Shown here piece by piece: positions 31,491 to 53,978 of a DNA stretch of 64,000 nucleotides. The notes below the pieces were generated by a model. That model saw only the letters and a list, made by a program, of their open reading frames with translations. It had not been told where the DNA came from and made no database searches. The position numbers were made by a program, and so were the translations under genes. How positions within the stretch are numbered: position 1 is the stretch's first letter; the number at the start of each line of letters is the position of its first letter. The stretch comes from a virus: UHGV virus genome UHGV-0382128. One strand, written 5' to 3'.

Positions 31491-32021
31491 TTAAGCAGTA
31501 AAGCCGTCAAGTTCACCGTCGGTGGTGGCCAGGTCAATACGATTATCAACAACTTTCGGCGTAATTACGAAAGTTGCCATTACACCCGGTTTATAACGGA
31601 GGTTCTTTTCAGTAACGGTACACGTTACCGTACGCAGAGTGACGCTATCGTGTTCGTCTTTCTGGTCTTCGGTGGTGTACTCAACGTCACCAGGTGCGAT
31701 AGAGTCGTCAGGTTTTACTTTATTGATGTAAAACTGTAATCGGTCGCGTAGTTCGTTTTCTCCAGTCCAGAGAGCCAAATCGTCCGTTACCTCAATGCGT
31801 CCGACAACGCCAGGTTCCAGACGATCGTAATGCAGTTCGATTGCGCCTTTAAAATTTTCAGACTCTGTACGTGCGGTCATGGTAACTTTGGTATTTTTAT
31901 CGCCCTTTTCAAGAGCGACAGGTTGACCAAAAGTTACCTCTTTATCAGTGACCTGATGCGGTAGCTCTGTGTTAGCAGCATTATAAAGCGCAACTAACAT
32001 CATCTGGTTAGTAGCTGCCAT
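31491..32021 (-). CDS. small beta-rich protein, member of a 6-copy paralog family (putatively virion or fibre associated)
   Basis: Shares N-terminal pattern and C-terminal GELDGFTA with 32090..32620; weaker similarity to 35297, 35775, 46811 and 53418. Confidence 0.55.
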   Translation of the reverse strand: MAATNQMMLVALYNAANTELPHQVTDKEVTFGQPVALEKGDKNTKVTMTARTESENFKGAIELHYDRLEPGVVGRIEVTDDLALWTGENELRDRLQFYINKVKPDDSIAPGDVEYTTEDQKDEHDSVTLRTVTCTVTEKNLRYKPGVMATFVITPKVVDNRIDLATTDGELDGFTA

Positions 32022-32072
32022 TATCTTAAATCCTTAAAATGAAAGTTAAAGAAATATCGGGGGAGGTTACCA

Positions 32073-32082
32073 CCCCCCCCCC
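32073..32082 (+). repeat. C10 homopolymer (G10 on the coding minus strand), intergenic
   Basis: Counted directly; lies between the stop of 32090..32620 and the RBS of 31491..32021. Confidence 0.9.
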
Positions 32083-32089
32083 GAATCAA

Positions 32090-32620
32090 TTACTCTTTAG
32101 GCGCTGGTGCGGTGAAGCCATCCAGTTCACCTTCCAAACCGTTCAGTGCTACTTTCTCAATAGCCGGAGGAGTAACTTTATACGTTGCAACAGTACCTGG
32201 CAGGAACTTCAGGTGTCCAGCCACAACAGTTACTACGTAAATGGTTTTGCCTTCTTCTTCACGAGAAATAGTTTGCAGGTCGTTTTCACCGAATTCGTCA
32301 TCGGTGTACCCCTTCTCAACCATGGCTGCGTTAACTTTTGCCAGGATTTTCGTTGGTGAATCGAAATCGGTAGTAGGTGCAGTTACTTCAACTTCACCAA
32401 CGATGTCGCAGGAAAGACGAGTATAGTGGAATTCTTTCTCGCCTTTGAAGTTCTGGCTTTCTGCCTTGGCGGTCAGAGTAATTTTAGTGTTGCGGCCAGC
32501 TTCTCCGGTGAAGTCAGCGACAGCACTAAAGTCAACATCAGCTACGGTGAGAGCGGAGTTCAGAGAGCTGTTTTTAGTGTTAATAAGTTCGATAAGCTGC
32601 TGTTGAAAAGTTTTAGCCAT
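32090..32620 (-). CDS. small beta-rich protein, same paralog family
   Basis: 176 aa; C-terminal GELDGFTAPAPKE; pattern LIELINT...TKITLTAKAESQNFKG...HYTRL. Confidence 0.55.
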   Translation of the reverse strand: MAKTFQQQLIELINTKNSSLNSALTVADVDFSAVADFTGEAGRNTKITLTAKAESQNFKGEKEFHYTRLSCDIVGEVEVTAPTTDFDSPTKILAKVNAAMVEKGYTDDEFGENDLQTISREEEGKTIYVVTVVAGHLKFLPGTVATYKVTPPAIEKVALNGLEGELDGFTAPAPKE

Positions 32621-32752
32621 TGTTTTTTACCTCGTAAGTAGTATGGGTGGTTTGCATAGTATTGTTCGGATTATAGAAGCGGTGTTAATAGTTATGACAG
32701 GCGGCAGAAGGGTTGCTTGTAAAATTAATTAACTTTAACTTTTTTATAAAAG

Positions 32753-33244
32753 GTGAAAAGTATGATAAAACGTTTTCTTATTGTTATGGTTGGTGTTTTT
32801 TCATTGGCAGGATGTGCCTTACAACCGAATGGTGACGGCCAATTCTCGACTGTGCCGGTGGAGCCACATGATATGGTTATTTACACCTGTATGGGTGCAG
32901 AGCAAGATTTTGCAAATTACAAACCTGTCGTCAGCTCGACTAATATAATGTTAGGGTCAGTAACTGTACTCGATACTGGTGCTAACTGGGTAGCCACTTG
33001 GCCAAATGGTAAGATTGAGTCGCCGCAACTTTATAAAGATTTATTAGGTAAAGTTAATGGGAATATTGATCCTATCACAGGACAACGTTACTATCGTGTA
33101 AATGGTTTACTTTCAAAAACGCCAACGTTTGCGTATTCTACTTTAGAATATAAAACGGGTGATGGTAAAGGCATTACTTTCTTCCACTGTAAAGAAGGTG
33201 TAGCGTCTGACACTGGAACAATGCTCCATCCTGCGGAACAATAA
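32753..33244 (+). CDS. lipoprotein (163 aa)
   Basis: Signal peptide with lipobox LAGC (MKSMIKRFLIVMVGVFSLAGCALQ); isolated plus-strand gene with its own terminator. Confidence 0.6.
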   Translation: MKSMIKRFLIVMVGVFSLAGCALQPNGDGQFSTVPVEPHDMVIYTCMGAEQDFANYKPVVSSTNIMLGSVTVLDTGANWVATWPNGKIESPQLYKDLLGKVNGNIDPITGQRYYRVNGLLSKTPTFAYSTLEYKTGDGKGITFFHCKEGVASDTGTMLHPAEQ

Positions 33245-33250
33245 AAACTA

Positions 33251-33286
33251 CCCTACTCCTTATCGGGAGTAGGGTATATTCATTTT
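33251..33286 (+). terminator. rho-independent terminator
   Basis: CCCTACTCC-TTATCG-GGAGTAGGG hairpin followed by TATATTCATTTT. Confidence 0.6.
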
Positions 33287-33359
33287 AACCGCCAAATCGT
33301 GCGTAAAACGCATTCTGAGCGTCTTTATACAAAATAAGGTATAAACACCTTAGAAATAG

Positions 33360-33875
33360 TTAAATCTCGACTAAGGCGCTCCAATCGATTGGTTTTTGCT
33401 TAACAACTTTCACAGTACCGCGATTTGGTGACCAGAAAGTAATGTTAGGCTGGTTACGAACGTCAATGTGCAACCAACTGATGTCACATTCAATAAAGTG
33501 AATGAACGGAAACTCGTCAGGGTTAGCAGCGATATAGTCGTGAACCTGTTTTACGGTGCTATCCAACAACGTTGCATCAATGGCGTTACCGAATTTGTGT
33601 TGACTTCCTGAATCGGCGTAAAGCTGCAACGCACGTTGTTTATAACTACCACCCTTAGGCTTTTCTTGATTAATAAAGAAATCTAAGGTTCTTAGTCCAC
33701 GTTGTTGTGCGGCAGTTGAGTTAATCACCATTCTACCGAAACGGTTACGAATCTGTTGTAGGGAAATCATTAGCAACGGATTCATAAACCGAATTGCGGA
33801 ATCGCCGTATTTGGCAATATAGGACTGTGGTACTAACTCTCTGAGTTTAAAGTTACTCGGATTTGGATGAAACAT
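33360..33875 (-). CDS. peptidase M15-family-like cell-wall hydrolase (putative lysin)
   Basis: SQHKFGNAIDA (S.H..G.A.D) and WLHIDVR (H.D) motifs typical of the M15 zinc peptidase fold. Confidence 0.5.
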   Translation of the reverse strand: MFHPNPSNFKLRELVPQSYIAKYGDSAIRFMNPLLMISLQQIRNRFGRMVINSTAAQQRGLRTLDFFINQEKPKGGSYKQRALQLYADSGSQHKFGNAIDATLLDSTVKQVHDYIAANPDEFPFIHFIECDISWLHIDVRNQPNITFWSPNRGTVKVVKQKPIDWSALVEI

Positions 33876-34527
33876 CTTCCCTCCCAGACAGAAAAGCCCG
33901 TTTGATGTTCAGGTATTTGACATTAACGGGACAATCTGTGGTGATATCAATACGTTCGTGGTCAGGGATTGCAGGTTCCTTAAACTCGCGAACGAATAAA
34001 TAGTTTCGATTGTAATCTAACGTACGAAACGCGTTAGTGTTGTAGGATGGCTTTGCATTAGGATCTACGTAGGCATCCCAGCCGAAATCAACAACGGCCT
34101 TATAAAATGTTTGGCAGATATAAGGCGAGATTTCCAACGACTGCATAATACGCAGGAAAGTTAAGTCAGAAAACTCTTTATCGATAAAACGCGAAACGTT
34201 ACCACCCGGTGTCATGGGATAGCTACGCTCCGTGTTGCATTTTTGATAGAGTAAGTCGTGAATACAGGCCGCAGGTGCCCACGGTCCGTCAGGATGGAAA
34301 ATTCCCTGGAGGTGATCAGGAATTGACGCTAAATCGGTAACGAACCCTTTCGGTGCTGTTAACCACAGTTGTGTGTCAGGCAATACACCCGTTAAATAAA
34401 CCGCACGGTCTAAGTGTACGTGGTCGTGATAAATCTCGCGTAACGTAAACGGATAATGGTAATCCTCCGTTAATACAAACCACTTATTGTCTAAACGTTT
34501 ATATTGAAGCTTCTCCATTACCCACAC
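33853..34527 (-). CDS. DUF1353-like protein
   Basis: GFVTDLASIP ... AACIHDLLYQ resembles the F.TD..SIP / HD..Y signature recalled for DUF1353. Confidence 0.4.
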   Translation of the reverse strand: MWVMEKLQYKRLDNKWFVLTEDYHYPFTLREIYHDHVHLDRAVYLTGVLPDTQLWLTAPKGFVTDLASIPDHLQGIFHPDGPWAPAACIHDLLYQKCNTERSYPMTPGGNVSRFIDKEFSDLTFLRIMQSLEISPYICQTFYKAVVDFGWDAYVDPNAKPSYNTNAFRTLDYNRNYLFVREFKEPAIPDHERIDITTDCPVNVKYLNIKRAFLSGREDVSSKSE

Positions 34528-34533
34528 CTTCCC

Positions 34534-34638
34534 TTATAGAAACCAGAAAAATTCGTACCCACGCTTTTCGTCTTTACGTTTCCGTCCAGACGTTAACGCT
34601 TTCCACAATAGTGCTAAGAGTTTAGCAAACCAATTCAT
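34534..34638 (-). CDS. possible small ORF (34 aa, MNWFAKLLALLWKALTSGRKRKDEKRGYEFFWFL)
   Basis: Hand-translated; ATG overlaps the GH108 stop (AAATGA); hydrophobic then basic segment; not in the ORF track. Confidence 0.25.
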   Translation of the reverse strand: MNWFAKLLALLWKALTSGRKRKDEKRGYEFFWFL

Positions 34639-35225
34639 TTTACTAACCCCGCCTTCACTACATAATCCGGCATTTCCCTGTACACGCGTCCGTACCAGCC
34701 GTAAGCGAATTTTTCATTCTTCTTACGCTTTTCGGAGATTTCTGTGTAGTAGGTTACCTGGTGTGAGATTAACGCAAAGATTAAGATGCCTAATCCCTCG
34801 CCTTTACGGTAATTCAGATAAGCATTCAGAGCACCTAGTGTTTTAGGTCCCATACCACCGTCGGTGTCAATATCTGCGTAAAGTTTCCCTTCGTTATTTA
34901 AAACGTTGAGAATACGTTGTAATGATTTCACACAGTTAACACGACCAGAGTTAATACCAAAATCAAACATCCTGTCGGCGAGTATCGGCGAGATAGCGAA
35001 AATCTCATCGAGTTTAAGTTTCTTCCACCAACCACGATCGTAAATATCAAACGCTTGCGCACGGGTCAGATCTTTCATTCTTCCTTTGTACCCGTATTCG
35101 CGTGCAGTTGTCAGTGTTACCCCGTGACAGGTTTCCCCACCTTTATCGTCAGGGTCATTGACGTACCCACCCTCTAAATCTGTTTTCGAAGCAATAATGC
35201 CTTCTTTAGTCCAACGTTCGGCCAT
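34635..35225 (-). CDS. GH108-like muramidase with peptidoglycan-binding domain (putative endolysin)
   Basis: EGGYVNDPDDKGGETCHGVT matches the GH108 N-terminal signature; C-terminal GWYGR typical of the associated PG-binding domain; AGGAG RBS. Confidence 0.65.
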   Translation of the reverse strand: MAERWTKEGIIASKTDLEGGYVNDPDDKGGETCHGVTLTTAREYGYKGRMKDLTRAQAFDIYDRGWWKKLKLDEIFAISPILADRMFDFGINSGRVNCVKSLQRILNVLNNEGKLYADIDTDGGMGPKTLGALNAYLNYRKGEGLGILIFALISHQVTYYTEISEKRKKNEKFAYGWYGRVYREMPDYVVKAGLVK

Positions 35226-35246
35226 TTTGTTTAACTCCTCTTTTAC

Positions 35247-35282
35247 ACAAAAAAAGAAAAGAGGGTGGGATTACCCCACCCT
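35247..35282 (-). terminator. rho-independent terminator
   Basis: GGGTGGGATTACCCCACCC hairpin followed on the minus strand by a T-rich run. Confidence 0.65.
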
Positions 35283-35296
35283 GTAGTTATTTCTTC

Positions 35297-35761
35297 TTAG
35301 CGAGATGGCTTGGCTGGCGCTGCGGCGACAGACGGTTTACGCGCAACACGCACTGTAAAACCACCGACCCAGGTTAGACACTCGGGGCGGAAGAAAATAC
35401 CGTGCTCGATTGCACTGCCGTCTAGCGGTAACGCACCAACCTGCTCTACCCATACATCGTCTTCTGTAAGGGTTAAGCCATACTGCTCGTTAATTACAGG
35501 CAGCAAGTCCGCAGTCGTGGTTGCTGCCTCAACTAACAGTTTCGGCAATACGTTGTGGAAATACAAACCTGCATCAATGCGGTTATACTGGAACGTTTGC
35601 TTATTAACATAACCGAGATTCTTAACCGGCACAACCGTAATTTCGGTGTTGTACGTACCGGTACTTACGACGGGCTCACCCAATGTGACTTTGGCGGTGT
35701 CGAGCTCGGCGTCTGGGTTAGCCTTTTTAATAAGGTCGAAGATAGTTTCTTGACTGGTCAT
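35297..35761 (-). CDS. small beta-rich protein, paralog family member
   Basis: 154 aa; pattern IFDLIKKANP...VTLGEPV...TEITVVP..F.YNRI. Confidence 0.5.
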   Translation of the reverse strand: MTSQETIFDLIKKANPDAELDTAKVTLGEPVVSTGTYNTEITVVPVKNLGYVNKQTFQYNRIDAGLYFHNVLPKLLVEAATTTADLLPVINEQYGLTLTEDDVWVEQVGALPLDGSAIEHGIFFRPECLTWVGGFTVRVARKPSVAAAPAKPSR

Positions 35762-35774
35762 TACTGTAATCCTC

Positions 35775-36623
35775 TTAATCTAAGAATCCAGGTAAGACCG
35801 AATTAGTCTTGGCTAATTCAATCTTCGACTTCGGACGATCGGTTCCGTTAAAGTGAATTAACAGTTTACCGGTCAGGTTAGAACACATACCGCTTAGGGC
35901 GAGTACCAGCACACGCGTGTACTTCGCATTTGCGCCTTCGAAACCTGCGGTAGGGCCATCGTAGATAACCTTAGCACCGAACAAGTTATTAGCAGCGTTC
36001 TTAGGTACGCTTACCCATTTCTCATCAACAACGTTAGTCAGTTTAGTAGCTAACTCTACTAAGTCTACGGTGCCGTTGATGGTAATTGGATCAAGGTAAT
36101 CTTTTTCTGCGGTGAAGTCAATTGGGTAAGAATAAACCGCAGCGTTACCTTTCTTAGTGGACGGATACTCTACCAGGTTTTCTAATTGAGTAACAGGCAG
36201 CAATTTAGCCAGATCAATAGGATCGCGTAGCGTAAGCGTCACTTCGCCACACCACTCGTAAGATTTCTCGTTAGCGGTAAGTTGGTGGGTTTTACCTTCA
36301 ACTTTCGCATCAACGATATCCGATGGCAGAATATTTAAATCGTATTTTGCGTTGATTGCGTTAAGCAAATCTGAGGCGGTTACAACACCGTCGTTACCGA
36401 ATACCAACTCACCTGTTAGGTATTCGGGCAAATTACGACGATGGTAAGTCACCGTTAAAGTAGTAGACTCATCGCCTTTGAGTTTAGAAGTCAGAACCAC
36501 CTGGGTATCAACCCCAGTACCAGTAGGTTCGCCGATATCAACATCACTGAAGGTCAATGGCGGAACAATATTGTTTTCAGTGTTGATGAGTTTTAGCAGT
36601 TTCTGTTTTGACGTAAGAGACAT
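35775..36623 (-). CDS. paralog family member with C-terminal extension (282 aa)
   Basis: N-terminal LLKLINTENN...FSDVDIGEP...LTVTYHRR pattern. Confidence 0.5.
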   Translation of the reverse strand: MSLTSKQKLLKLINTENNIVPPLTFSDVDIGEPTGTGVDTQVVLTSKLKGDESTTLTVTYHRRNLPEYLTGELVFGNDGVVTASDLLNAINAKYDLNILPSDIVDAKVEGKTHQLTANEKSYEWCGEVTLTLRDPIDLAKLLPVTQLENLVEYPSTKKGNAAVYSYPIDFTAEKDYLDPITINGTVDLVELATKLTNVVDEKWVSVPKNAANNLFGAKVIYDGPTAGFEGANAKYTRVLVLALSGMCSNLTGKLLIHFNGTDRPKSKIELAKTNSVLPGFLD

Positions 36624-36724
36624 CGCGTTAACTCACAATAAGTAAAAAGGTTTAAGAGGTCGTTTTACATCCCTCAGCCAGCATAGGAATAGTCGAGTAG
36701 AAGGTAAGTAAAGTAGCGTCAAAA

Positions 36725-36782
36725 TAACAAAAAAGAAAAGGGAAAGAAAATTAATTCCGCTATAGACCGAAGTCTATAGCGG
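36725..36782 (-). terminator. rho-independent terminator (UUCG-loop hairpin)
   Basis: CCGCTATAGAC-TTCG-GTCTATAGCGG perfect 11-bp stem followed on the minus strand by a T-rich tract. Confidence 0.7.
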
Positions 36783-36789
36783 AGAGAGC

Positions 36790-37221: not shown

Positions 37222-37239
37222 TTTAATACTCCTTTAGGT

Positions 37240-37272
37240 AAATACAATAATAGAGGGGTGGTAAACCACCCC
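37240..37272 (-). terminator. terminator-like hairpin (weak T-run)
   Basis: AGGGGTGGTTTACCACCCCT hairpin after the stop of 37291..38445. Confidence 0.4.
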
Positions 37273-37290
37273 TTGTACGAATTTAGTTAA

Positions 37291-44686: not shown

Positions 44687-46807
44687 TTAAATAACTACCC
44701 AGCTTTTACCATCGGAACCAATCTGCATTAGCGTAATACTTTCATTGGTATCAATGGGTTTGGCAAGACCTTCTGTCCCACTCTTTGGAGTGATGAGAAC
44801 GTTTGAATTTTCCGGTTTAACGGTGATCTTACCAGCCTTATTTGCCACGATCTGAATATTTCTGCCCACGCTATATTCTAGATCAGGAATAGTAAGTTGG
44901 CCGCCACGGTTGGTGGGTGGGAAATACACATAAGACGACACATCTTCCTCAGATAACACTATGCTACCAGAATCACGATTGACCGAGATCTCAAACTTAG
45001 AAATATCGATATCATAGGCAGTAACTTTCGTAATATCCGTCAGAACCAATTCGTTCAAATCGGTCTTAGCTGGACTGTTCGCCAGATCAAATGGAGTACC
45101 ATTCGTACCGTCCAGCACAGGTGTGACTGTGGTTTTATTGGCACCAGGATAAATGATTTCAAGCGTATGCCAGTTATTATCGTACGCACCAAAAGTTCCT
45201 AATTTCGCATTCTGCTTTTTATGATGCATCAGATTAAGATTCTTAGCGTCGGTCTGTAAGAAAAAAGACATTAGGTACGGGTTTGTATCAGCCACACTAG
45301 CGTCAGCAAGTGTAGTACCAGAAGGTAGGTCGGACGCGGAGATACGCCAATAAAGCCCTAAGCCGAAACGATTTTCTGCTAAATCACCTTTTAGTCTAAA
45401 AGTAACGGTCAGTCGTCCACCGTAACGTATCATGTCCGCAGCAGATGTCATTGACTTAGTTACATTCCAAGGTTTCATCGTTACAGCCTTTCTTAATTCG
45501 ACGAAATGCCCGTTTCCATCCTCAGAATCTTGCACGGTTACGTTACAATCAACGATATTGTTCCAACCCTGCCCTTTCAGGGAACCATCTCCACGACGTC
45601 CGTTATAACCCACAGACTCTACTAATGGGGTATAGCTTCTTACCACATTCATATTGTCTTTGAGCTCTTTAGTGTCGTTCTTCGTCAGGAGCATTGCACC
45701 ATTCGCTGTTCTTGATAATATCTCAGCAGCTATTCTCTCTGAGATAATACCGCGTCGTGCCCAAGAACTGAAATGGCTATTCCTTGTTTCAGACGTCCAG
45801 TTTTTATTACTACGGGTGGCAGCACCGTAGTAGGCAGCACCAGCGATATCAGGATCGTCAGTGGGATCATTAGTCGGTACACGTTGGCCATTATCGTCGT
45901 ACATGAATGGAACAAAAAAGATATTTTTTTGTTCATTGTTACGATAATTACCGTATATGGTTTCATATTGAACAGGATATTTTTCCTTCCAATAGTAGGT
46001 AGTGTCCCCGCAGATCCATGGTACTTCGGCGGTGTCGTACTCGGGCATCTGAGAGAGATGGTCAGAGAGATCAGTTCGGAAACGCTCTACCATTGCCATA
46101 AATAACGCTGGTTGTTGTGCGTAACCTACTTTAGTCAGATCATACTCCCCCTGCATCCACACTACAGCCAAGAGTTTATTTTTAGGATTAACGTCCAGAG
46201 CTTTTTTGGTCCGGCTAACTAAATCTTTATAAAGAGGTTTTTCCACCCCCCATACCGATGACGTCGCAGAGGCTCCTGTGGCTTCATCGAAGGTACCTTC
46301 TGCACCACCCGTGAAAGCAGAACCGCCGCGTGCGCAGGGTACTAGTAAGATACCAGCGTTGCTAGGAATATACGGGAGAAGACGCTTCGCGATGTGTAGA
46401 CCTTGACCCACACATCCGTATTCACCTTTGTCCAAATTGGCTTTGGGGTGCGAGAATACGGACATATCTTGCACGTCGTGCAGACAGTGATCCGCTGGAA
46501 TGACGTCGTTATACTTACAATCAGCCCCGTTAGGCGTTACCTTCGCACGGCGCGCCATCTGTTTAATTCGCGGATCGGGAGCGTCCAACGTCGCCGGTAG
46601 AGGCAACCCTTCACCATAACTCATCGCATTAGATTGCCCGGCTATAGGAATCACGAAGTAATACTCCGGCTCCGTCGTGCCCTGAAGTTTTGCAATATCA
46701 ATTTTATATTCTTTTTCTTCCTTAGAAAGAAGAACTAACGCACCTTTGAGATCGCCAGAGAAATTGTCGAGTTCATGGATACGTTTCTTTCCAATTGGCT
46801 GACTCAT
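44687..46807 (-). CDS. tailspike/fibre protein with SGNH (GDSL-type) esterase-like domain
   Basis: GQSNA motif at about residue 56; N-terminal KKRIHELDNFSGDLKGALVLLSKEEKEYK shared with the 1479-aa fibre (KKIRLHDLHPYTGDIGEGVLLFSKDEKDYK), suggesting a common attachment domain. Confidence 0.6.
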   Translation of the reverse strand: MSQPIGKKRIHELDNFSGDLKGALVLLSKEEKEYKIDIAKLQGTTEPEYYFVIPIAGQSNAMSYGEGLPLPATLDAPDPRIKQMARRAKVTPNGADCKYNDVIPADHCLHDVQDMSVFSHPKANLDKGEYGCVGQGLHIAKRLLPYIPSNAGILLVPCARGGSAFTGGAEGTFDEATGASATSSVWGVEKPLYKDLVSRTKKALDVNPKNKLLAVVWMQGEYDLTKVGYAQQPALFMAMVERFRTDLSDHLSQMPEYDTAEVPWICGDTTYYWKEKYPVQYETIYGNYRNNEQKNIFFVPFMYDDNGQRVPTNDPTDDPDIAGAAYYGAATRSNKNWTSETRNSHFSSWARRGIISERIAAEILSRTANGAMLLTKNDTKELKDNMNVVRSYTPLVESVGYNGRRGDGSLKGQGWNNIVDCNVTVQDSEDGNGHFVELRKAVTMKPWNVTKSMTSAADMIRYGGRLTVTFRLKGDLAENRFGLGLYWRISASDLPSGTTLADASVADTNPYLMSFFLQTDAKNLNLMHHKKQNAKLGTFGAYDNNWHTLEIIYPGANKTTVTPVLDGTNGTPFDLANSPAKTDLNELVLTDITKVTAYDIDISKFEISVNRDSGSIVLSEEDVSSYVYFPPTNRGGQLTIPDLEYSVGRNIQIVANKAGKITVKPENSNVLITPKSGTEGLAKPIDTNESITLMQIGSDGKSWVVI

Positions 46808-46810
46808 CTA

Positions 46811-47323
46811 CTACTCTCCAAAAGTTAAGATTTTATTGTCAAACGTCAACACGACAGAATCATCACCGATGCCACACGGTGTTTCATCTGGGCCGAAAAC
46901 CACCACGGAGAACTGTCCTTTATAAGCGATGGAATTCGGAGCGATGCTAAGCGTTACCGCGTCTTTACCTACCGTGAACGACTGGTCGGTTAAATCGTCG
47001 GTTTGTAAGTTAGCACCACAAACGGCATTGACGGATTCGATAAGATCGTGTGCATTAAACCCTTCACCTCTTACTTTTACCAGAATAGGTTGTTGGTTTA
47101 ACCACCGCTCTGCGGTTAAACGGTTGTAGTAGATTTGCAACGTTCTGTTTCCAGGACGTTTAATCTTTACAATGGCAGTGGAGTCACGATCCATTTCATC
47201 ACTGGTTTTTACGTCACTGACTTCAACCTCGTTCTCTTGCAAGTCAAGTTGGAGGTCATGGTTAACCAGTGAAATAACCATGTTAAGTGAAGTTAGTGAT
47301 AAATCTGGTGTGAATTTTTCCAC
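46811..47323 (-). CDS. small beta-rich protein, paralog family member (GTG start)
   Basis: Pattern LSLTSLNMVISLVNHD ... IYYNRL; paralog 53418..53978 sits in the equivalent position upstream of the other fibre. Confidence 0.5.
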   Translation of the reverse strand: MEKFTPDLSLTSLNMVISLVNHDLQLDLQENEVEVSDVKTSDEMDRDSTAIVKIKRPGNRTLQIYYNRLTAERWLNQQPILVKVRGEGFNAHDLIESVNAVCGANLQTDDLTDQSFTVGKDAVTLSIAPNSIAYKGQFSVVVFGPDETPCGIGDDSVVLTFDNKILTFGE

Positions 47324-47865: not shown

Positions 47866-47918
47866 CCATTGTTCGCCCGTTTCGTTCTTGGCCGAAGAAC
47901 CGACCCACGAACCGGTTA

Positions 47919-47928
47919 CCCCCCCCCC
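47919..47928 (+). repeat. C10 homopolymer (G10 on the coding strand) directly after the start codon of the receptor-binding-like paralog
   Basis: Counted directly; length determines whether the N-terminal 22 codons are in frame. Confidence 0.9.
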
Positions 47929-47942
47929 ATCGCGATCTCCTG

Positions 47943-48173: not shown

Positions 48174-48183
48174 CTTTCTGTCC

Positions 48184-48729
48184 TTAGACTACACTTATTG
48201 AAATTGTTGCGCCGTTCTGATTAAATAACCAGTTGGTTGCCGTCTTAGCCTCATAGCGCCGGACGCCGTTACTGTAAGAGTACGGTAGAAAAGTAATCTT
48301 CGTTCCGTTAAACGAAAGCGTAATATTCTGATTTGGTCCATTGGTTAGGGCCATGTAGATAATACCAGTATTTTGTACTTGGCTAAGATGTGTGACGCTA
48401 CAACCCAAGATCGAACCTGACACCGAACCGGCCGCATTTTGTGTTTGCACACGATTCGATACTGTAGAACCAGCACCCGTTGTTGTAGAGTTGTTCGAAT
48501 ACCCCCCATACGTATTTGTAATAGGAACCCACTGCGTGTTCGTAGCCTGCACCAAAACAACATAGGTTGATCGGCCTACAACGAGTTTAAGATCCTCTAC
48601 GCTACGCCCGACCATCTGCGACATGTTAAATGGCGTGCTCAGTTTAAGCTTATTACCTGCCACACTCATCCACTCCTGACCGGTTACTGCCTTTGCTGAG
48701 CTTCCAACCCAGCCGGATGCTACCCCCAT
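48184..48729 (-). CDS. receptor-binding-like protein (181 aa), intact paralog
   Basis: N-terminal MGVASGWVGSSAKAVTGQEWMSVAGNKLKLSTPFNMSQMVGRS conserved with 47422..47865; GGAGG RBS; immediately downstream of the 1479-aa fibre gene. Confidence 0.55.
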   Translation of the reverse strand: MGVASGWVGSSAKAVTGQEWMSVAGNKLKLSTPFNMSQMVGRSVEDLKLVVGRSTYVVLVQATNTQWVPITNTYGGYSNNSTTTGAGSTVSNRVQTQNAAGSVSGSILGCSVTHLSQVQNTGIIYMALTNGPNQNITLSFNGTKITFLPYSYSNGVRRYEAKTATNWLFNQNGATISISVV

Positions 48730-48743
48730 AAATCCTCCAAACT

Positions 48744-48771
48744 AAGATAGGGGGATTACTCCCCCTATCTT
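48744..48771 (-). promoter_or_regulatory. intercistronic stem-loop (perfect 12-bp stem) between fibre gene and downstream receptor-binding-like gene
   Basis: AAGATAGGGGGA-GTAA-TCCCCCTATCTT overlapping the fibre stop codon and just upstream of the RBS of 48184..48729. Confidence 0.45.
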
Positions 48772-51700
48772 TAATTCCCCTTGAGTTCTTTAAGCTCTCG
48801 GCGAAGAGACTTCATACCCTCTACTAACAGCGCAATAACGCCATTGTAATTTAGACGTAAACGTTTTTCGCCTGAAATGGCATCGTCGTCCTCGGACACA
48901 AGTTCAGGTAACGCTTCTAAAGCGTCCTGAGCAATTAGACCTACAGAAGTCTGCCAGCCGTCGTCAGGATGCTGAATTTCGTACAAATACCCTGTTAGTA
49001 ACTCTAACCGATCCAAAGCTTTATCCAGCTTCACCAGATTACGTTTGTTACGACGGTCAGAACGAATCTGTACGTCGTTAAACGAACCGTTACCGTTGCC
49101 AGTAACGTTATGTCCAAAGTTTACTTGACCGTTGGAATTATTAAAAGACAACGGACGTAATCCGTTCCAGGAACCCGCTGCGGCTTGTCCGGCATCGGTT
49201 ACTAAGAAATAGGTATTGGCACCATCGTTACGTAAAATAAAACCGTAGGTACCGTAAGCGATTCGAAAATCAGGGTATTTAGTGGCCAATTTACCGTTAA
49301 CGGTTAAATCGCCGCCTATAGTACCGCCCCCCGAAGGTAGTGCACCCACTTCCGCAGCAGTTGGCTTGTTTCTCGTATTGTAAGCACGACGCCAGCCTGG
49401 TGAGTATCCATCGCCGTTAAATACGTAGATAAACTCCGCATTAGTGAGTGCTCCGCCGACGCTCGTCGTTGTGGCGGTCGTTATACGGATCGTGTAGTTG
49501 TTTGTGCTGTTGCCGTTACTAATGACTTCTATAACGGCCCCAGCTAACGGAATGACACCACAACCCGTCTCGCTGTGAGGTATGGACGCACTGGCGGCAT
49601 AAGCCCACGCACAGCGAGCAACCCACGATCTTGTGGTAAATGCGCCGTTATTTTTCAATAACGTCACTAGCTGTGCTGTAGTTATTGCACCGCCATCAGC
49701 GCCAGTTTCTAACCAACCACTAGGTGATGCCGGACAACCTATTTCGGCTGGCCCTAACGATATATTTCTAGTGCCATCAAACGCAATACCATTGATGGTT
49801 CTTGCGGTTTGCAACTTTGTTGCCGTGGCTGCGTTTCCGGTGGTCGACTGATTCCCTGTTTGGTTTACTCCAGGTAAACTGATGTCTTTAGTACCATCAA
49901 AAGCCACGCCACCTATATTTCGCGCAGTCTGGAGCTTAGTCGCTGTCGCCGCATTCCCCGTAGTCGATTGGTTACCGGTTTGGTTTACGCCAGGAAGATT
50001 AACGTCTTTTGTCCCATCGAACACCACACCGCCGATCTTACGTGCGGTTTGTAACTTAGTAGCGGTCGCTGCATTACCTGTCGTATTCTGGTTGCCTTGC
50101 TGGTTAACGCCCGGTAAATTGATGTCACCTGTACCGTCAAAGCTAACGCCTCCGATCCTGCGAGCGGTTTTCAGTTTCGTCGCGGTAGCGGCGTTGCCGG
50201 TAGTATCCTGATTACCTGTGGCATTTACACCAGGAATGCTATCACGGGCAGTATAAACTTGTGCCCAATCTGACCACGGCGCATCAGCAGTATCACGTCG
50301 ACTACGAATATAAACGGGTGCGTGCGCACCGCTCGTCCCCGACCATCCGATTAACAGTTCTCCTTCGCCTAGCGCAGCAGAACCGCCCAAATGCAGTAAG
50401 TTACCATAAGCGGTTGGATAACCGTTATTGTAAACTTCGTACATCTGAATACCGGGTGTACCTTTGTTTGATCCAGTCAGTGCAGTAACACGTCCACGTC
50501 CTACCAACGTGTTGATATTGATGTCTCTAGACCCATCAAATTTCACACCGTTGATGTTTCGAGCCGTTTGTAATTTGGTTGCGGTTCCCGCGTTCCCAGA
50601 GGTGTTTTGATTACCCTGTTGGTTTACACCAGGGAGGCTAATGTCTCCGCTACCGTCGAAACTTACACCGCCGATTAAACGGGCTGTTTTCAGTTTCGTT
50701 GCCGTAGCAGCATTGCCTGTTAACTCACCTGATAACCCTTTTGCAAAGGTCTGTTTTTCTGCCCACGTATGCGCTGCATTCAATACGGGCATCTGGCGGC
50801 TAGTAATAGTACGTTTACCCTTTTCACCAGCGACGCGAACAGCAAAGAAGCGATAGTTAGCAGTAGACACTGTACCACGCCAGACCAACATACTCCGGCC
50901 AGTACCGGTGTCCTCCGACGCCCCTACAAGAATAGTGACCAAGTTACCGTCGATAACACCCCAATCCATTCCCGCAGGAATGTTTTTCATGGTATTCAAT
51001 GGTGTACTTATCATCTGGCCAGGAACGAAGTCGAAGGTTTGCCAGTCTAACGGATCGACCTTAGCAGCAACCCCACCGATCCCTAAAGTCAACGGGAGTG
51101 AATAGGATGTGAAAATTTCTCGCCATTCGCTCCAGGCGTTTCCTGTACGAATTCGTTGGAACTTGCGACCTTTCGAAGTTGCGCCTGTACCGTATGTGGT
51201 ATAATTTTGTTCAACACCTGAACCGTCTAAGCGTAAGGTAACTTCGCAAACACCTAGCAAGGTTGCGCCAGCAGAGTCTGTTAACGGACTGTCTGTAGCC
51301 TCACCGGTAACACTAAAGCGACCCGGTTTAGTTAAGTCGTTAAAGCTACCCTTATAGTAGGCACCGTCTACCTGATACCCAACCTGAATCCAATCTTCCC
51401 ACTGCGGATTAGACGAATCCCAAGTCGCAGTCAAACCACGGACATACATCGTACCACGTCGTGTGGTGTATCGTTGCAACCGTCCGTAAAGACCACCTTC
51501 CATGACTTCTAATACGCCTTGCGCATTACCGCCCTCTTCAGGATAATGTCTGTCGAACACCGCTAACGAACTGGACGAGTTACGCCAGTTACCCATGTGC
51601 TCAGCGCCGCCTAAGGAGTTCAGATCGATCGATGTAGATAACGGACGTACACCGGTAGTTACCATTCTCCACGGTGACCACGGGCCATTAGTTCCGTTCC

Positions 51701-53210
51701 ACGCACCTGACAACATACGGTTGTACACGTTACCATTACGACAGGTAAAACGTTGCGCACCGCTATAGTTACCCGCTTTATACACTTCTAGATAACCTAC
51801 CGCACCGTCTTCCGGGAAGTGTTTTGCTATTGATGCGTTTGTTGATGTCGACTTGGACCATGTTCCTGTGTAATTGGCATCTGGAGCAAATGTGTTAATA
51901 TCAGCATCTGCGGGCATTTCACCACGGAAACGCAGATAGGTATCAGGAGATAGACCAATATTGCGAGCAAAGGTTTCTTTATTGGGGATATCAGCACCGT
52001 TAGAGTTTTTCTGTAACGCAGCGTTCGCTTTATCTACAGTGGCTTTTAATCCCAAGAAATTGATGATATCCGCAGTTGTCCCTTTTGCTAACAAGGTTCT
52101 GGCGGTTTCTGTAAAGTCAGTTAACCCGACTTTATTAGTGCCAGTGAAATAAGGGAGCTTGTTTGCTGCGGTTGTGACTGCGGCAATAGCAGTAAGTAGT
52201 GGACTGATAGGTTGCTTCTGTGCAAGTTTCTCAGTAATCGTTGTTGCGAAGTTAGGGTCATTACCTAACGCCGTAGCTAATTCCGCTAAGGTATCTAACG
52301 TCTCAGGTGAAGAACCAACCAATTCCGCGATAGCAGCACGCACCCAGGCCGTTGTGGAGATGCTCGTGTCATTCGAGTCCTTTGGGGGCGTTGGTGATGT
52401 CGGGTTACCCGTAAAATTCGGCGAATGTTTATCGGCTTTTAACTGTAATTCGTCGTTCAGCTGTTTAACCGTGGACGGTGTGGCAGCCTCCGTCACGGAT
52501 TCGCTAGTCAGGGTATTGTTAAGTTTAACGATACCTTTACCGGTCGTACTAGCGTCAACTAAACCCTGTGCAGCGATTTTCTCCGCACGCAGAGCGGCTG
52601 ACTCCGAGCGTGTAGCTGCGCCTTCTGAGCTTTCTTTATCTTTCGTAACCTGCGCAGCAACCTTCTCCACCGCGCCCTTACTGGCCTCAATTGAAGCCGC
52701 AGTATTTGCGATACTGGTAGCGGTCTGTTGAACCTGTCCGGCCCGTTGCGTAACCGTTTCTGCTTTCTTAGTTACATCAGCCGCTACAGCTGTCACAGAT
52801 TGTTCGCTTGCGGCGACAGCTTGAGCCTTCTCATTTACTGATTGTGAAACAGTATCTACGGCAGTTTTTGCTGCTAAAACTTCAGCGTGTTTTTTGTTAA
52901 CCTCCGCAGTTTTAGTGGCGACGGTTCCCGCTTGCTCATTAACTGTGGAAGCTAAAGTGGTGGTCTGTTGCTTCGCTGTTTCTGCTAAATCTTTAGCTTT
53001 CGTAGCTTCTGTTGCGGACTGTTGTGATTTGGCCGCAGCCGTTTGTGCATCAGCAACCGCACTTCTGACGGTGTCAATGTCCGCAACGATCTCGCGGACG
53101 GGTAACTTATAATCTTTTTCGTCTTTCGAAAAAAGTAAAACGCCTTCACCGATATCCCCGGTGTACGGATGTAAGTCGTGTAAACGTATTTTCTTTACCG
53201 CTTTAGCCAT
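48771..53210 (-). CDS. long tail fibre protein (1479 aa) with tandem about 39-aa repeats and C-terminal intramolecular chaperone (peptidase S74-like) domain
   Basis: C-terminus SDRRNKRNLVKLDKALDRLELLTGYLYEIQHPDDGWQTSVGLIAQDALEALPELVS fits the S74 auto-cleaving chaperone signature; six repeats of GNQ.TTGNAATATKLQTAR.IGGV.FDGT.DI.LPGVNQ; fibre-repeat-like TTGKGIVKLNNTLTSESVTEAATPSTV. Confidence 0.8.
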   Translation of the reverse strand: MAKAVKKIRLHDLHPYTGDIGEGVLLFSKDEKDYKLPVREIVADIDTVRSAVADAQTAAAKSQQSATEATKAKDLAETAKQQTTTLASTVNEQAGTVATKTAEVNKKHAEVLAAKTAVDTVSQSVNEKAQAVAASEQSVTAVAADVTKKAETVTQRAGQVQQTATSIANTAASIEASKGAVEKVAAQVTKDKESSEGAATRSESAALRAEKIAAQGLVDASTTGKGIVKLNNTLTSESVTEAATPSTVKQLNDELQLKADKHSPNFTGNPTSPTPPKDSNDTSISTTAWVRAAIAELVGSSPETLDTLAELATALGNDPNFATTITEKLAQKQPISPLLTAIAAVTTAANKLPYFTGTNKVGLTDFTETARTLLAKGTTADIINFLGLKATVDKANAALQKNSNGADIPNKETFARNIGLSPDTYLRFRGEMPADADINTFAPDANYTGTWSKSTSTNASIAKHFPEDGAVGYLEVYKAGNYSGAQRFTCRNGNVYNRMLSGAWNGTNGPWSPWRMVTTGVRPLSTSIDLNSLGGAEHMGNWRNSSSSLAVFDRHYPEEGGNAQGVLEVMEGGLYGRLQRYTTRRGTMYVRGLTATWDSSNPQWEDWIQVGYQVDGAYYKGSFNDLTKPGRFSVTGEATDSPLTDSAGATLLGVCEVTLRLDGSGVEQNYTTYGTGATSKGRKFQRIRTGNAWSEWREIFTSYSLPLTLGIGGVAAKVDPLDWQTFDFVPGQMISTPLNTMKNIPAGMDWGVIDGNLVTILVGASEDTGTGRSMLVWRGTVSTANYRFFAVRVAGEKGKRTITSRQMPVLNAAHTWAEKQTFAKGLSGELTGNAATATKLKTARLIGGVSFDGSGDISLPGVNQQGNQNTSGNAGTATKLQTARNINGVKFDGSRDININTLVGRGRVTALTGSNKGTPGIQMYEVYNNGYPTAYGNLLHLGGSAALGEGELLIGWSGTSGAHAPVYIRSRRDTADAPWSDWAQVYTARDSIPGVNATGNQDTTGNAATATKLKTARRIGGVSFDGTGDINLPGVNQQGNQNTTGNAATATKLQTARKIGGVVFDGTKDVNLPGVNQTGNQSTTGNAATATKLQTARNIGGVAFDGTKDISLPGVNQTGNQSTTGNAATATKLQTARTINGIAFDGTRNISLGPAEIGCPASPSGWLETGADGGAITTAQLVTLLKNNGAFTTRSWVARCAWAYAASASIPHSETGCGVIPLAGAVIEVISNGNSTNNYTIRITTATTTSVGGALTNAEFIYVFNGDGYSPGWRRAYNTRNKPTAAEVGALPSGGGTIGGDLTVNGKLATKYPDFRIAYGTYGFILRNDGANTYFLVTDAGQAAAGSWNGLRPLSFNNSNGQVNFGHNVTGNGNGSFNDVQIRSDRRNKRNLVKLDKALDRLELLTGYLYEIQHPDDGWQTSVGLIAQDALEALPELVSEDDDAISGEKRLRLNYNGVIALLVEGMKSLRRELKELKGN
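49770..50720 (-). repeat. tandem coding repeats (about 117 nt units) inside the 1479-aa fibre gene
   Basis: Repeating nucleotide units readable on the plus strand (e.g. ...gccgtggctgcgtttccggtggtcgactgattccctgtttggtttac...) corresponding to the protein repeats; two runs separated by a non-repeat segment at about 50230-50500. Confidence 0.7.
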
Positions 53211-53417
53211 GATATTTAATTCTCTATCGGGAGCTAAAAGATCTGGGGAGGTACTTTACCCCCCGCCCAATATTTTTATAAGCGGATTATTATACTGGTT
53301 TTAATCCATCATCTTCTAACGTGAAAGTGATGCCCAACTCCGCGTTCTCATGATCTGGGTTTACTAAGTCTTGATAAACGTTTGCTTTGGCCTCCATTAC
53401 CAGAAAAACCGTCAAGT

Positions 53418-53978
53418 TCATGTAGCCGGGTTTTCTTCAGCGGAGTCTCCATCTGGAACCTCAAATGTAAGAACAGCATCGTCACCAATACAGAAGATTG
53501 CATCTTCTTCGTTTGCTAATGCCCGTTCAGTTGTATCAAATAACGTCACCATAAACGCATTCATCCACGCAGGAGAATCGTCAGCAACGTTGACAGCAAT
53601 AGGATCGTTACCTAAAGTGATATCTGAAGCACGTAAATCCTCGGGTTGTAAGTTCGTTCCGCAGAATTCATTTACAACACCTAAAATGTCGCGTACGTTG
53701 TCTTCGGTACCATCTAACGAAATCAAAATAGGTTCGGACGCTAACACTTTGTCCGCATCCAAACGGTCGTAATAAACAACTACAGAAGCACCATCAGGTT
53801 TCCTGATTTTTGTAATCTCTGTCAGTGTGTTACGACGCGAAGTGGTCGGGGATGGGTTTGCCGTAGTGTTGCTAATACGGATTTCGCTTAGAGACAACCG
53901 TGAACCGTTATCGTGGTTGATTAAAGCGACCACTAGTTCGGCTGAGGACAAACTTAAATCAGGTACGTAAGCAGTCAC
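53418..53978 (-). CDS. small beta-rich protein, paralog family member (GTG start at 53978 with GGGAGG RBS)
   Basis: MTAYVPDLSLSSAELVVALINHDNG parallels MEKFTPDLSLTSLNMVISLVNHDLQ of 46811..47323. Confidence 0.5.
   Translation of the reverse strand: MTAYVPDLSLSSAELVVALINHDNGSRLSLSEIRISNTTANPSPTTSRRNTLTEITKIRKPDGASVVVYYDRLDADKVLASEPILISLDGTEDNVRDILGVVNEFCGTNLQPEDLRASDITLGNDPIAVNVADDSPAWMNAFMVTLFDTTERALANEEDAIFCIGDDAVLTFEVPDGDSAEENPAT

What the first reader, a model, noticed from the sequence alone, without database searches (positions are those of the whole stretch)
31491..53978. Six-member family of small beta-rich proteins interleaved with fibre, tailspike and lysis genes
ORFs 31491..32021, 32090..32620, 35297..35761, 35775..36623, 46811..47323 and 53418..53978 share an N-terminal pattern (L..LIN ... 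T.V/I-T-L-T ... Y.RL), and two share the C-terminal GELDGFTA. Two sit immediately beside the large fibre or tailspike genes, the position where fibre assembly, chaperone or decoration proteins are normally found. The family expansion is unusual and the function is unknown.
Basis: seen in the sequence. Interest (0 to 1): 0.5.

Follow-up and report, generated by a model that had tools for sequence, protein, structure and literature searches.

The report
DUF7941 virion proteins of a jumbo phage
The six small proteins are a real family, but a known one: DUF7941 (SPN3US "paralog family B"), a virion-protein family of nucleus-forming jumbo phages thought to link head-to-tail into filaments, and two of the six sit beside receptor-binding genes that share a common N-terminal peptide.

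Summary
All six ORFs pass the Pfam gathering threshold for DUF7941 (PF25613). Against all 203 window ORFs, the top five hits of D and of C are exactly the other five. Models of D and B match only phiKZ gp127 (PDB 9XQD) among solved structures. The window is the fibre/peripheral-baseplate module of a new SPN3US-like Chimalliviridae phage.

The family is known: SPN3US "paralog family B" (20-21 members; Ali 2017) and DUF7941 (ten in Goslar; 2026 preprint with filament EM). Six members is a contraction, not an unusual expansion.

Three subtypes:
- D is full length (gp127/gp22-like), and C is a tail-less N-terminal domain.
- A and B are gp23/gp126/gp160-like, with a conserved GELDGF tail.
- E and F are gp122-like.

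The E/F type lies directly upstream of genes whose products begin with a conserved ~40-residue peptide on unrelated bodies (esterase, long fibre). SPN3US proteomics shows this cassette is tail-dependent. D and A/B orthologues instead co-purify with tailless heads, which conflicts with the baseplate-filament model.

Verdict: new members of a known kind, with an open question about where the proteins sit in the virion.

The parts
35775..36623 (-). D: full-length DUF7941 protein, 282 aa. N-terminal domain aa 1-136, flexible linker 137-216, C-terminal domain 217-259, and a lineage-specific extra tail 260-282 (GTDRPKSKIELAKTNSVLPGFLD). Orthologue of SPN3US gp138; homologue of phiKZ gp127 and Goslar gp22.
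   Evidence: Pfam DUF7941 180 bits across the whole profile. PDB sequence hit 9xqd_0 PHIKZ127, E=4e-7. AF2 model and Foldseek: 9xqd_0 is the only significant hit, E=2e-5, TM-score 0.62 normalised to the target. Similarity to gp22 6e-15 and gp127 9e-12. The extra tail is absent from nine homologues and conserved within the lineage.
35297..35761 (-). C: 154 aa, D-type N-terminal domain only, ending in a Pro/Ala-rich stub with no docking-tail motif. It lies 13 nt downstream of D, mirroring phiKZ gp127 followed by gp126.
   Evidence: Pfam DUF7941 105 bits over profile positions 7-155. Closest to the N-terminal half of Goslar gp22, 3e-9. C-terminus shown. phiKZ gene order.
32090..32620 (-). B: 176 aa, gp23/gp126/gp160 type. 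N-terminal domain aa 1-155 plus a flexible tail containing GELDGF (aa 164-169).
31491..32021 (-). A: 176 aa, paralogue of B (35% identity) with the same GELDGFTA C-terminus. Together with B it is a duplication of the single SPN3US gp160.
   Evidence: A~B E=1e-26. Pfam 36 bits. Goslar gp23 1.4e-11 over the full length. SPN3US has one place matching this type. gp160 tail NGELDGFV.
46811..47323 (-). E: 170 aa, gp122-type DUF7941 protein (phrog_2935) with a conserved tail (...VVLTF..LTFGE). Its TAG stop, a second TAG and the esterase ATG are all in one reading frame.
   Evidence: Pfam 52 bits; phrog_2935 5e-23. E~F 1e-32. Junction sequence.
53418..53978 (-). F: 186 aa, gp122-type DUF7941 protein. 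Orthologue of SPN3US gp122 (46% identity) with the invariant tail CIGDDAVLTF.
   Evidence: Pfam 69 bits. tblastn finds one orthologue per SPN3US-like genome. Tail conservation.
44687..46807 (-). 706-aa SGNH/SASA carbohydrate esterase (tailspike-like) directly downstream of E. Residues 1-40 are the conserved N-terminal 'plug' peptide (nt 46688-46807).
   Evidence: Pfam SASA and DUF6645; phrog_143. N-peptide homologous to that of the fibre, 39% identity, E=4e-8 pairwise.
48771..53210 (-). 1479-aa T4-like long fibre (Phage_fiber_2, Gp34_trimer, S74 chaperone). Residues 1-40 are the same N-terminal plug peptide (nt 53091-53210). Two Gp38-like adhesin genes follow, at 48184-48729 and 47422-47865.
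53348..53452 (-). Stub of a third plug-bearing gene (METPLKKTRLHELDGFSGN...), overlapping the 3' end of F in another frame. It was left by a ~3.3-kb deletion that removed the gp123-like and gp124-like genes.
   Evidence: N-peptide HMM hit at 6e-7. Translation. In relative L014, 3375 nt (a 153-aa and a 1002-aa gene) occupy the place of window 53329-53399.
34635..35225 (-). GH108 + PG_binding_3 endolysin directly downstream of D and C. The same neighbourhood is seen in Goslar (gp22, gp23, endolysin gp24) and phiKZ (gp143, endolysin gp144).
8192..24562 (.). Context that identifies the module: a phiKZ gp130 homologue (8192-9454, minus strand) and four plus-strand proteins with the gp131/133/134/135-type N-terminal fibre domain (9524-13846, 13857-18041, 18136-23322, 23237-24562). 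These correspond to SPN3US paralog family C.
   Evidence: phmmer with phiKZ proteins: gp130 9e-11, gp131 3e-9, gp135 8e-15. PHROGs 2163, 7449, 7557 and 8078. PMC5694885.

Best explanation
The six genes encode DUF7941 proteins (SPN3US 'paralog family B'), a virion-protein family restricted to Chimalliviridae jumbo phages.

Each protein has an alpha/beta N-terminal domain of about 140-155 residues, followed by a short, flexible, strongly conserved segment. That segment is a linker in the full-length form and a C-terminal tail in the short forms. In the published AlphaFold model it docks on the N-terminal domain of the next subunit, giving head-to-tail chains.

The six probably divide the work as follows. 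This division is inferred, not shown.
- D (N-terminal domain, linker, C-terminal domain, plus an extra tail) is the gp127/gp22-like unit that can sit on the virion and hold the next subunit.
- A and B (N-terminal domain plus GELDGF tail) are gp23/gp160-like abundant chain units.
- C (N-terminal domain with no tail) can accept a partner but cannot donate one, so it would cap a chain, as gp126 does on gp127 in phiKZ.
- E and F (gp122-like) are low-copy, tail-dependent members. They are encoded next to receptor-binding proteins that all begin with one conserved ~40-residue peptide, and they probably serve as the attachment point for those interchangeable proteins.

Shown here: family membership, fold, subtypes, tail conservation, the conserved gene cassette, and tail-dependence of the cassette in SPN3US.
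Inferred: docking of tails on N-terminal domains, the roles of the individual paralogues, and a physical E/F-to-plug contact.

For: Phage identity: 44-50% amino-acid identity to SPN3US and relatives, and Seoulvirus is in Chimalliviridae. phiKZ gp130 and gp131-family homologues are present.

Published function: Goslar gp22 (~580 copies) and gp23 (~2140 copies) per virion; gp22 filaments by negative-stain EM; AF3 head-to-tail models; a gp126-gp127 dimer fitted into the phiKZ outer baseplate. gp127 terminates the gp139 band.

Tails are constrained: GELDGF is identical in A, B and gp160 at ~47% overall identity; LATVLADNVADGF is near-invariant in gp23-type proteins at 44-54% identity; CIGDDAVLT[FY] is invariant in the gp122 type at ~45%. 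The tails are disordered in monomer models.

Cassette: in 25 of 25 phage records the plug peptide lies directly downstream of the gp122-type gene. The plug sits at residues 1-43 of proteins 55-1494 aa long with unrelated bodies.

SPN3US proteomics, PSMs in wild type versus tailless heads: gp122 7/7/8 vs 0/0/0; gp123 16/16/23 vs 0/0/0; gp124 186/185/159 vs 8/9/3.
Against: SPN3US orthologues of D (gp138: 94/85/103 in wild type vs 96/116/80 in tailless heads) and of A/B (gp160: 625/533/592 vs 472/580/476) are as abundant in CsCl-purified tailless heads as in whole virions. The bulk of the family is therefore not baseplate-anchored in the closest model phage. The Goslar preprint does not discuss this.

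No multimer prediction could be run here, so docking is taken from the preprint, which is itself prediction plus EM of one protein.

No natural DUF7941-plug fusion was found among 1.84 billion representatives.

In relative L014 there are three plug-bearing proteins but only two E/F-type genes, so the pairing is not one-to-one.

SPN3US gp122 fell below the authors' virion threshold and was called non-virion.

No gp139-type anchor was found in the window.

The resemblance of D's extra tail to the A/B tail is only suggestive: score 32 against a best random score of 31.
Confidence: 0.6

Rival explanations
1. Head proteins. D, C, A and B (and perhaps all six) are components of the capsid, either internal or ejection proteins or an external capsid or neck decoration, as the SPN3US group concluded for paralog family B. 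On this reading the position next to fibre genes is just genome organisation.
For: SPN3US gp138-155, gp160 and gp83 have equal or higher normalised spectral counts in purified tailless heads of the tail-tube amber mutant 255(am107) than in wild-type virions. gp141 and gp160 were estimated at >300 copies per capsid. Copy numbers of hundreds to thousands are hard to fit on six baseplate sites.
Against: phiKZ gp127 is modelled in density in the outer peripheral baseplate (PDB 9XQD). No family B member is among the eight SPN3US head proteins that Ali 2017 lists as cleaved by the prohead protease. Self-assembling filaments could stick to or co-sediment with heads. Goslar fusions with carbohydrate-binding, glycosidase and LRR domains point outward, toward the host. 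The E/F orthologue gp122 and its cassette are absent from tailless heads. One family B member, gp237, was itself reassigned to the tail.
Confidence: 0.3
2. Fibre or tailspike assembly chaperones. The small proteins fold or trimerise the adjacent large proteins and are not part of the particle.
For: E and F are immediately upstream of the esterase and the fibre cluster. SPN3US gp122 is at very low abundance in virions and was classed as non-virion.
Against: Orthologues of D, A/B and the SPN3US array are abundant in purified particles. gp122 was found in all three wild-type replicates and in none of the tailless ones, the same pattern as its tail partners. The fibre carries its own S74 intramolecular chaperone domain, and a separate gene labelled 'tail assembly chaperone' by PHROGs (DUF1353) and Gp38-like genes are present. 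A, B, C and D are not next to fibre genes.
Confidence: 0.04
3. No real family: the shared motifs are chance similarity among small ORFs.
For: Some pairs are individually non-significant, for example B vs E or F at E>0.2.
Against: All six pass a curated Pfam threshold. The searches retrieve each other reciprocally against 203 ORFs. HHalign gives 98.8%. Two independent models hit the same solved structure.
Confidence: 0.01

Closest known systems
SPN3US paralog family B (Ali et al. 2017, PMC5694885; Thomas lab 2023, PMC10052503)
   Same: Direct orthology and synteny. F corresponds to gp122, D to gp138, and A/B to gp160. The order gp122 ... gp138 ... endolysin ... gp160 is preserved. Identity is ~44-50%.
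   Different: SPN3US has 20-21 members, including a 17-gene array gp138-154. Here that array is reduced to D plus C, while gp160 and the gp122 cassette are each duplicated. D has an extra 23-residue tail that gp138 lacks.
Goslar DUF7941 proteins gp22 and gp23 and the proposed 'DUF7941 fiber cloud' (bioRxiv 10.64898/2026.04.21.720040)
   Same: D matches gp22 (N-terminal domain, linker, C-terminal domain). A and B match gp23 (N-terminal domain plus linker/tail) over the full length, including the ...DGF tail. The neighbourhood with a GH108-type endolysin is the same.
   Different: Goslar attaches receptor-binding domains by fusion (gp86, gp92, gp161). Here the esterase and fibre are separate proteins with a plug peptide, encoded next to E/F-type genes, and no DUF7941 module was detected in them. 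Filament formation has been shown only for Goslar gp22.
phiKZ gp127/gp126 (and gp143) in the outer peripheral baseplate, PDB 9XQD (PMC13250141)
   Same: D followed by C mirrors gp127 (290 aa) followed by gp126 (147 aa, no tail) in order, strand and size. D and B models superpose on the gp127 N-terminal domain. E is weakly similar to gp143 (2e-3), which also lies next to an endolysin.
   Different: By sequence gp126 is closer to A/B than to C. phiKZ has only about three members. No gp139-type anchor was detected in this window.
Conserved N-terminal attachment modules on exchangeable receptor-binding proteins in other phages, such as the branched tailspike systems of CBA120 and G7C (recalled from general knowledge, not tested here)
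   Same: A short conserved N-terminal module on otherwise unrelated receptor-binding bodies, encoded in a mosaic, recombination-prone cluster.
   Different: The plug here is a ~40-residue peptide found only next to gp122-type DUF7941 genes. No sequence relationship to those systems was tested, and the binding partner is inferred.

Membership tests
Pfam PF25613 DUF7941 | Score at or above the curated gathering threshold (27 bits) against the family HMM | tested here: met
   A 36.3, B 44.7, C 104.8, D 180.3, E 51.6, F 68.6 bits. Only D covers the whole 276-position profile. The others cover the N-terminal ~75-155 positions.
Pfam PF25613 DUF7941 | N-terminal domain fold as in the only solved member (phiKZ gp127, PDB 9XQD chain 0) | tested here: met
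Pfam PF25613 DUF7941 | Restriction to Chimalliviridae jumbo phages (as stated in the Goslar preprint) | tested here: met
   The 119 phage records with a D homologue are all jumbo phages of Erwinia, Salmonella, Serratia, Klebsiella, Pseudomonas and others, including phiKZ and Goslar. The nearest relatives are Seoulvirus-like, and Seoulvirus is in Chimalliviridae. phiKZ gp130 and gp131-family homologues are in the window. Hallmark genes such as chimallin or the RNA polymerases were not looked for in this window.
SPN3US paralog family B | Orthology and synteny with named members (gp122?, gp138-154, gp160) | tested here: met
   tblastn: D to gp138 44% identity over 92% of the query; F to gp122 46%; B to gp160 48%. 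Gene numbers mapped. The gp161 equivalent (30745-31419) did not test as a member.
Head-to-tail DUF7941 filament (Goslar model) | N-terminal domain followed by a flexible docking linker or tail | tested here: met
   D: linker 137-216 and tail 262-282 at pLDDT<50. B: tail 160-176 at ~50. HHalign aligns the A/B tail on the linker. Tails are among the best-conserved blocks. C lacks the tail motif.
Head-to-tail DUF7941 filament (Goslar model) | Linker or tail of one protomer binds the N-terminal domain of the next; the proteins polymerise | not testable with these tools
   Only single-chain prediction is available and no coordinates or PAE are returned. The claim rests on AF3 models and negative-stain EM of Goslar gp22.
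Head-to-tail DUF7941 filament (Goslar model) | Anchoring at the peripheral baseplate | tested here: inconclusive
   For: phiKZ gp127 in 9XQD, and gp122/gp123/gp124 are tail-dependent in SPN3US. Against: gp138 and gp160 are at wild-type levels in tailless heads. No gp139 homologue was found in the window.
Phage tail-fibre assembly chaperones | Similarity to known chaperone families; absence from the mature virion | tested here: not met
   The six have no Pfam or PHROG chaperone hit. Their orthologues are virion components.

The most novel reading that the evidence does not exclude
The gp122-type members (E and F) form a tail-specific adaptor subclass of DUF7941. They accept a conserved ~40-residue N-terminal plug (M..KK.R.HELD.[FY].GD...L.SK.EKEYK) carried by interchangeable receptor-binding proteins such as an esterase tailspike, a T4-like long fibre and gp123-like proteins. 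This would be a non-covalent counterpart of the DUF7941-receptor-binding fusions of Goslar. It would physically connect host-recognition modules to the DUF7941 scaffold and make host range swappable by recombination at the plug boundary. The ELDxF core, shared by the plug and the A/B tail (GELDGF), might use the same groove on the N-terminal domain.
Probability: 0.35. Interest if true: 0.55.

Novelty: new member of a known kind. Interest (0 to 1): 0.33.

Why it matters
The finding as stated is ordinary. The family has a Pfam entry, a 2017 description in SPN3US and a 2026 functional proposal.

What the analysis adds:
1. It equates SPN3US "paralog family B" with DUF7941. The Goslar preprint does not mention SPN3US, and in what I read of the SPN3US papers I saw no mention of DUF7941. 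That exposes a direct conflict: head-associated by proteomics, baseplate filaments by cryo-EM and modelling.
2. It sorts the family into three subtypes that behave differently in existing proteomic data.
3. It identifies a conserved cassette of a gp122-type DUF7941 gene plus plug-bearing receptor-binding proteins. This gives a testable handle on how chimalliviruses mount and exchange host-recognition modules.

Natural variants, such as this phage with a deletion of the gp123/gp124-like genes versus relative L014, offer ready-made material for host-range comparison.

Tried and rejected
- A seventh member. ORF 41566-41847 gave a weak jackhmmer hit (0.003-0.03) but was rejected by Pfam/PHROGs and HHalign (0.3%). 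The positional equivalent of SPN3US gp161 (30745-31419), listed as family B by Ali 2017, was also rejected (0.1%; Pfam DUF4376 only).
- A cryptic DUF7941 module at the N-terminus of the large neighbours (esterase, fibre, the 384-aa ORF, the giant plus-strand proteins, the radical-SAM proteins): none found.
- Natural fusions of DUF7941 with the plug peptide (a Rosetta-stone test): none among 1.84 billion representatives. Of the three hits that were not N-terminal, two are repeat artefacts and one (P0096) looks scrambled.
- A gp139/Goslar gp32-type anchor in the window: not detected by phmmer.
- Strict one-to-one pairing of E/F with a receptor-binding protein: abandoned after relative L014 showed F, then a 153-aa plug protein, then a 1002-aa protein, then the fibre.
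- D's extra tail as a second docking peptide: the 17-mer scan ranks it second of 26,111 positions but only one point above the best random match. It is kept as a weak idea only.
- Sigma-70 promoter scan: not enriched (11 found, 11.1 expected), as expected for a phage with its own RNA polymerases.
- Nucleotide search for the source phage: no close relative in the phage collection.

Full report
**1.

The six ORFs are present on the minus strand at the stated coordinates. A~B (E=1e-26) and E~F (E=1e-32) are obvious pairs. The links between groups are weak but specific. Against all 203 ORFs of at least 50 aa in the window, D finds E, B, F, C and A as its top five hits (2e-4 to 0.08). C likewise finds the other five first. 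jackhmmer from D or E converges on exactly these six.

All six exceed the curated 27-bit threshold of one Pfam family, PF25613 DUF7941 (36-180 bits). They hit PHROGs 1037, 2935, 3589 and 4862, mostly labelled 'virion structural protein'.

Two further candidates, 41566-41847 and 30745-31419, were tested and rejected.

**2. Where the window comes from**

There is no close nucleotide relative among deposited phages. The proteins are 44-50% identical to those of Salmonella phage SPN3US, SPAsTU and Erwinia phage pEa_SNUABM_29. Seoulvirus belongs to the Chimalliviridae.

The window also encodes a homologue of phiKZ outer-baseplate protein gp130, and four proteins with the gp131/133/134/135-type N-terminal fibre domain. 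The latter correspond to SPN3US 'paralog family C'. The window is therefore the fibre/peripheral-baseplate module of a new SPN3US-like jumbo phage. Near-identical D proteins occur on ~224-227-kb contigs in many Salmonella enterica isolate assemblies.

**3. The family is already known, under two names**

*DUF7941.* A 2026 preprint on phage Goslar (bioRxiv 10.64898/2026.04.21.720040) describes DUF7941 as chimallivirus-specific.
- It counts ten members in Goslar, at least three in phiKZ (gp126, gp127, gp143) and at least five in Erwinia phage RAY.
- It estimates ~580 copies of gp22 and ~2140 copies of gp23 per virion.
- It shows filaments of purified gp22 by negative-stain EM.
- It predicts head-to-tail assembly, in which the disordered linker of one protomer docks on the N-terminal domain of the next.
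- It proposes a baseplate-anchored 'fiber cloud' for host recognition.

*phiKZ.* The phiKZ structural atlas (PMC13250141) places one gp127 per star-lobe complex, at the end of the gp139 band in the outer baseplate (PDB 9XQD).

*Paralog family B.* By mapping gene numbers, I find that SPN3US 'paralog family B' (gp83, gp138-154, gp161, gp237, possibly gp122; PMC5694885) is the same family. Specifically, gp138 is the orthologue of D, gp160 of A/B, and gp122 of F. The Goslar preprint does not mention SPN3US.

Six members is therefore not an unusual expansion. At the syntenic site SPN3US has a 17-gene array where this phage has only D and C. In the other direction, gp160 and the gp122 cassette are each duplicated here.

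**4. Anatomy and subtypes**

D is full length.
- By sequence it hits PHIKZ127 in the PDB (E=4e-7).
- Its AF2 model has a confident N-terminal domain (aa 1-136, pLDDT ~80), a low-confidence linker (137-216), a moderate C-terminal domain and a disordered tail.
- Foldseek finds only 9xqd_0 (E=2e-5).

Direct comparisons give three subtypes:
- D is gp22/gp127-like, and C is the N-terminal domain of that type with no tail.
- A and B are gp23/gp126/gp160-like.
- E and F are gp122-like (phrog_2935), with a weak link to phiKZ gp143.

HHalign between the short and full-length groups gives 98.8% probability (E=6e-17) and aligns the A/B tail onto the full-length linker.

The tails are among the most conserved blocks:
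- GELDGF is identical in A, B and gp160.
- LATVLADNVADGF is nearly invariant in gp23-type proteins that are only 44-54% identical overall.
- CIGDDAVLT[FY] is invariant in gp122-type proteins at ~45% identity.

D carries an additional 23-residue tail that is absent from nine homologues but conserved in its lineage. Its resemblance to the A/B tail is only suggestive. C and phiKZ gp126 end right after the domain. The gene pair D then C mirrors gp127 then gp126.

Terminator-like hairpins bracket D+C and follow B and A separately. This suggests separate expression units (inference).

**5. The E/F cassette**

The esterase (706 aa; SASA/SGNH plus DUF6645) and the long fibre (1479 aa; Gp34_trimer plus S74) are unrelated apart from their first ~36-40 residues, which are 39% identical (E=4e-8 pairwise). 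An HMM of this peptide also hits SPN3US gp123, the gene directly downstream of gp122 (2e-16).

Further evidence for the cassette:
- In 25 of 25 phage records the peptide lies directly downstream of the gp122-type gene (compare).
- Among 1.84 billion representative proteins the peptide occurs 16 times, always at residues 1-43, on bodies of 55-1494 aa that are otherwise unrelated. It never occurs fused behind a DUF7941 domain.
- A stub of a third such gene overlaps the end of F. In relative L014 the full 153-aa and 1002-aa genes are present there, so this phage has a ~3.3-kb deletion.
- That relative also shows the pairing is not one-to-one: three plug proteins, two E/F-type genes.

**6. Independent experimental support and a conflict**

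SPN3US Table S2 (PMC10052503) gives PSMs in wild-type virions versus tailless heads:

| Protein | Type | Wild type | Tailless heads |
|---|---|---|---|
| gp122 | E/F type | 7/7/8 | 0/0/0 |
| gp123 | plug-bearing protein | 16/16/23 | 0/0/0 |
| gp124 | 113.7-kDa tail-associated protein | 186/185/159 | 8/9/3 |
| gp138 | D type | 94/85/103 | 96/116/80 |
| gp160 | A/B type | 625/533/592 | 472/580/476 |

The gp122 cassette is therefore tail-dependent, although the authors scored gp122 as non-virion on an abundance cut-off. The D and A/B types stay with tailless heads. That contradicts a purely baseplate location, even though phiKZ gp127 is seen in the baseplate. Possible reconciliations are attachment at more than one site, or self-assembled filaments that co-purify with heads. 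Neither can be tested here.

**7. Verdict**

Family membership is secure (about 0.97). The mechanism is that of DUF7941: an N-terminal domain plus a docking tail forming head-to-tail chains. I add a proposed division of labour among the six: D as holder, A and B as chain units, C as cap, E and F as tail-specific adaptors for plug-bearing receptor-binding proteins. This is moderately supported (0.6 overall), and the location of the bulk subunits is unresolved.

The chaperone reading is disfavoured, and chance similarity is excluded. The finding is a new set of members of a known kind. Its modest value lies in linking two literatures and in the adaptor-plug cassette.

Noticed in passing
window 53329-53399 (and stub ORF 53348-53452, minus strand): Compared with a close relative (L014, Logan SRR6922511), 71 nt stand in place of 3375 nt that encode a 153-aa gp123-like and a 1002-aa gp124-like tail protein. 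This phage is a natural deletion variant that lacks an abundant SPN3US-type tail protein.
   Followed up: yes
window 25042-25956, 27990-28928, 28912-30234 (plus strand): Three radical-SAM paralogues (Pfam Radical_SAM + Fer4_12; phrog_1802) lie between the giant fibre proteins and genes A/B. Their role in a virion-structure module is unexplained.
   Followed up: no
window 9524-24562 (plus strand) and 8192-9454 (minus strand): A second paralogue family: four proteins (1440, 1394, 1728 and 441 aa) share the phiKZ gp131/133/134/135-type N-terminal fibre domain (SPN3US paralog family C). They sit next to a phiKZ gp130 homologue, the baseplate protein beneath which the hetero-hexameric fibres attach in phiKZ.
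   Followed up: partly
window 46805-46813: E's stop codon TAG, a second TAG and the esterase ATG are contiguous and in the same reading frame (GAG TAG TAG ATG). This may be coincidence, or a trace of a former fusion like the Goslar DUF7941-receptor-binding proteins.
   Followed up: partly
window ~46000-54000: G+C content is 0.46-0.49 here against ~0.41-0.42 in the flanks. A 135-nt stretch (47774-47908, in a Gp38-like adhesin gene) is 96% identical to an unrelated 109-kb Escherichia phage record (CP054387). The receptor-binding cluster looks like a mosaic, horizontally exchanged island.
   Followed up: partly
proteins P0001-P0025 (homologues of D, 35775-36623): Near-identical copies (77-93% identity) lie on ~224-227-kb contigs in many Salmonella enterica isolate assemblies (serovars Dublin, Kedougou, Enteritidis, Bovismorbificans), and one cluster has 508 member sequences. 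This suggests the jumbo phage is often carried along with cultured Salmonella isolates.
   Followed up: no
window 32057-32084 and ~53240-53265 (minus strand): Similar G-run hairpins (CGGGGGGGGGGTGGTAACCTCCCCCG and GGGCGGGGGGTAAAGTACCTCCCC) follow B and lie between F and the fibre gene. Terminator-like hairpins are enriched in 31000-37500 (15 found, 5.3 expected).
   Followed up: partly
window 37291-38445 (minus strand) and other ORFs in 36790-44561: A 384-aa ORF and several neighbours (258, 181, 280, 147 and 283 aa) have no PHROG match; the 384-aa ORF also has no Pfam match, and the others were not checked against Pfam. 36790-37221 and 38468-38896 are paralogues of each other (phrog_8484).
   Followed up: no
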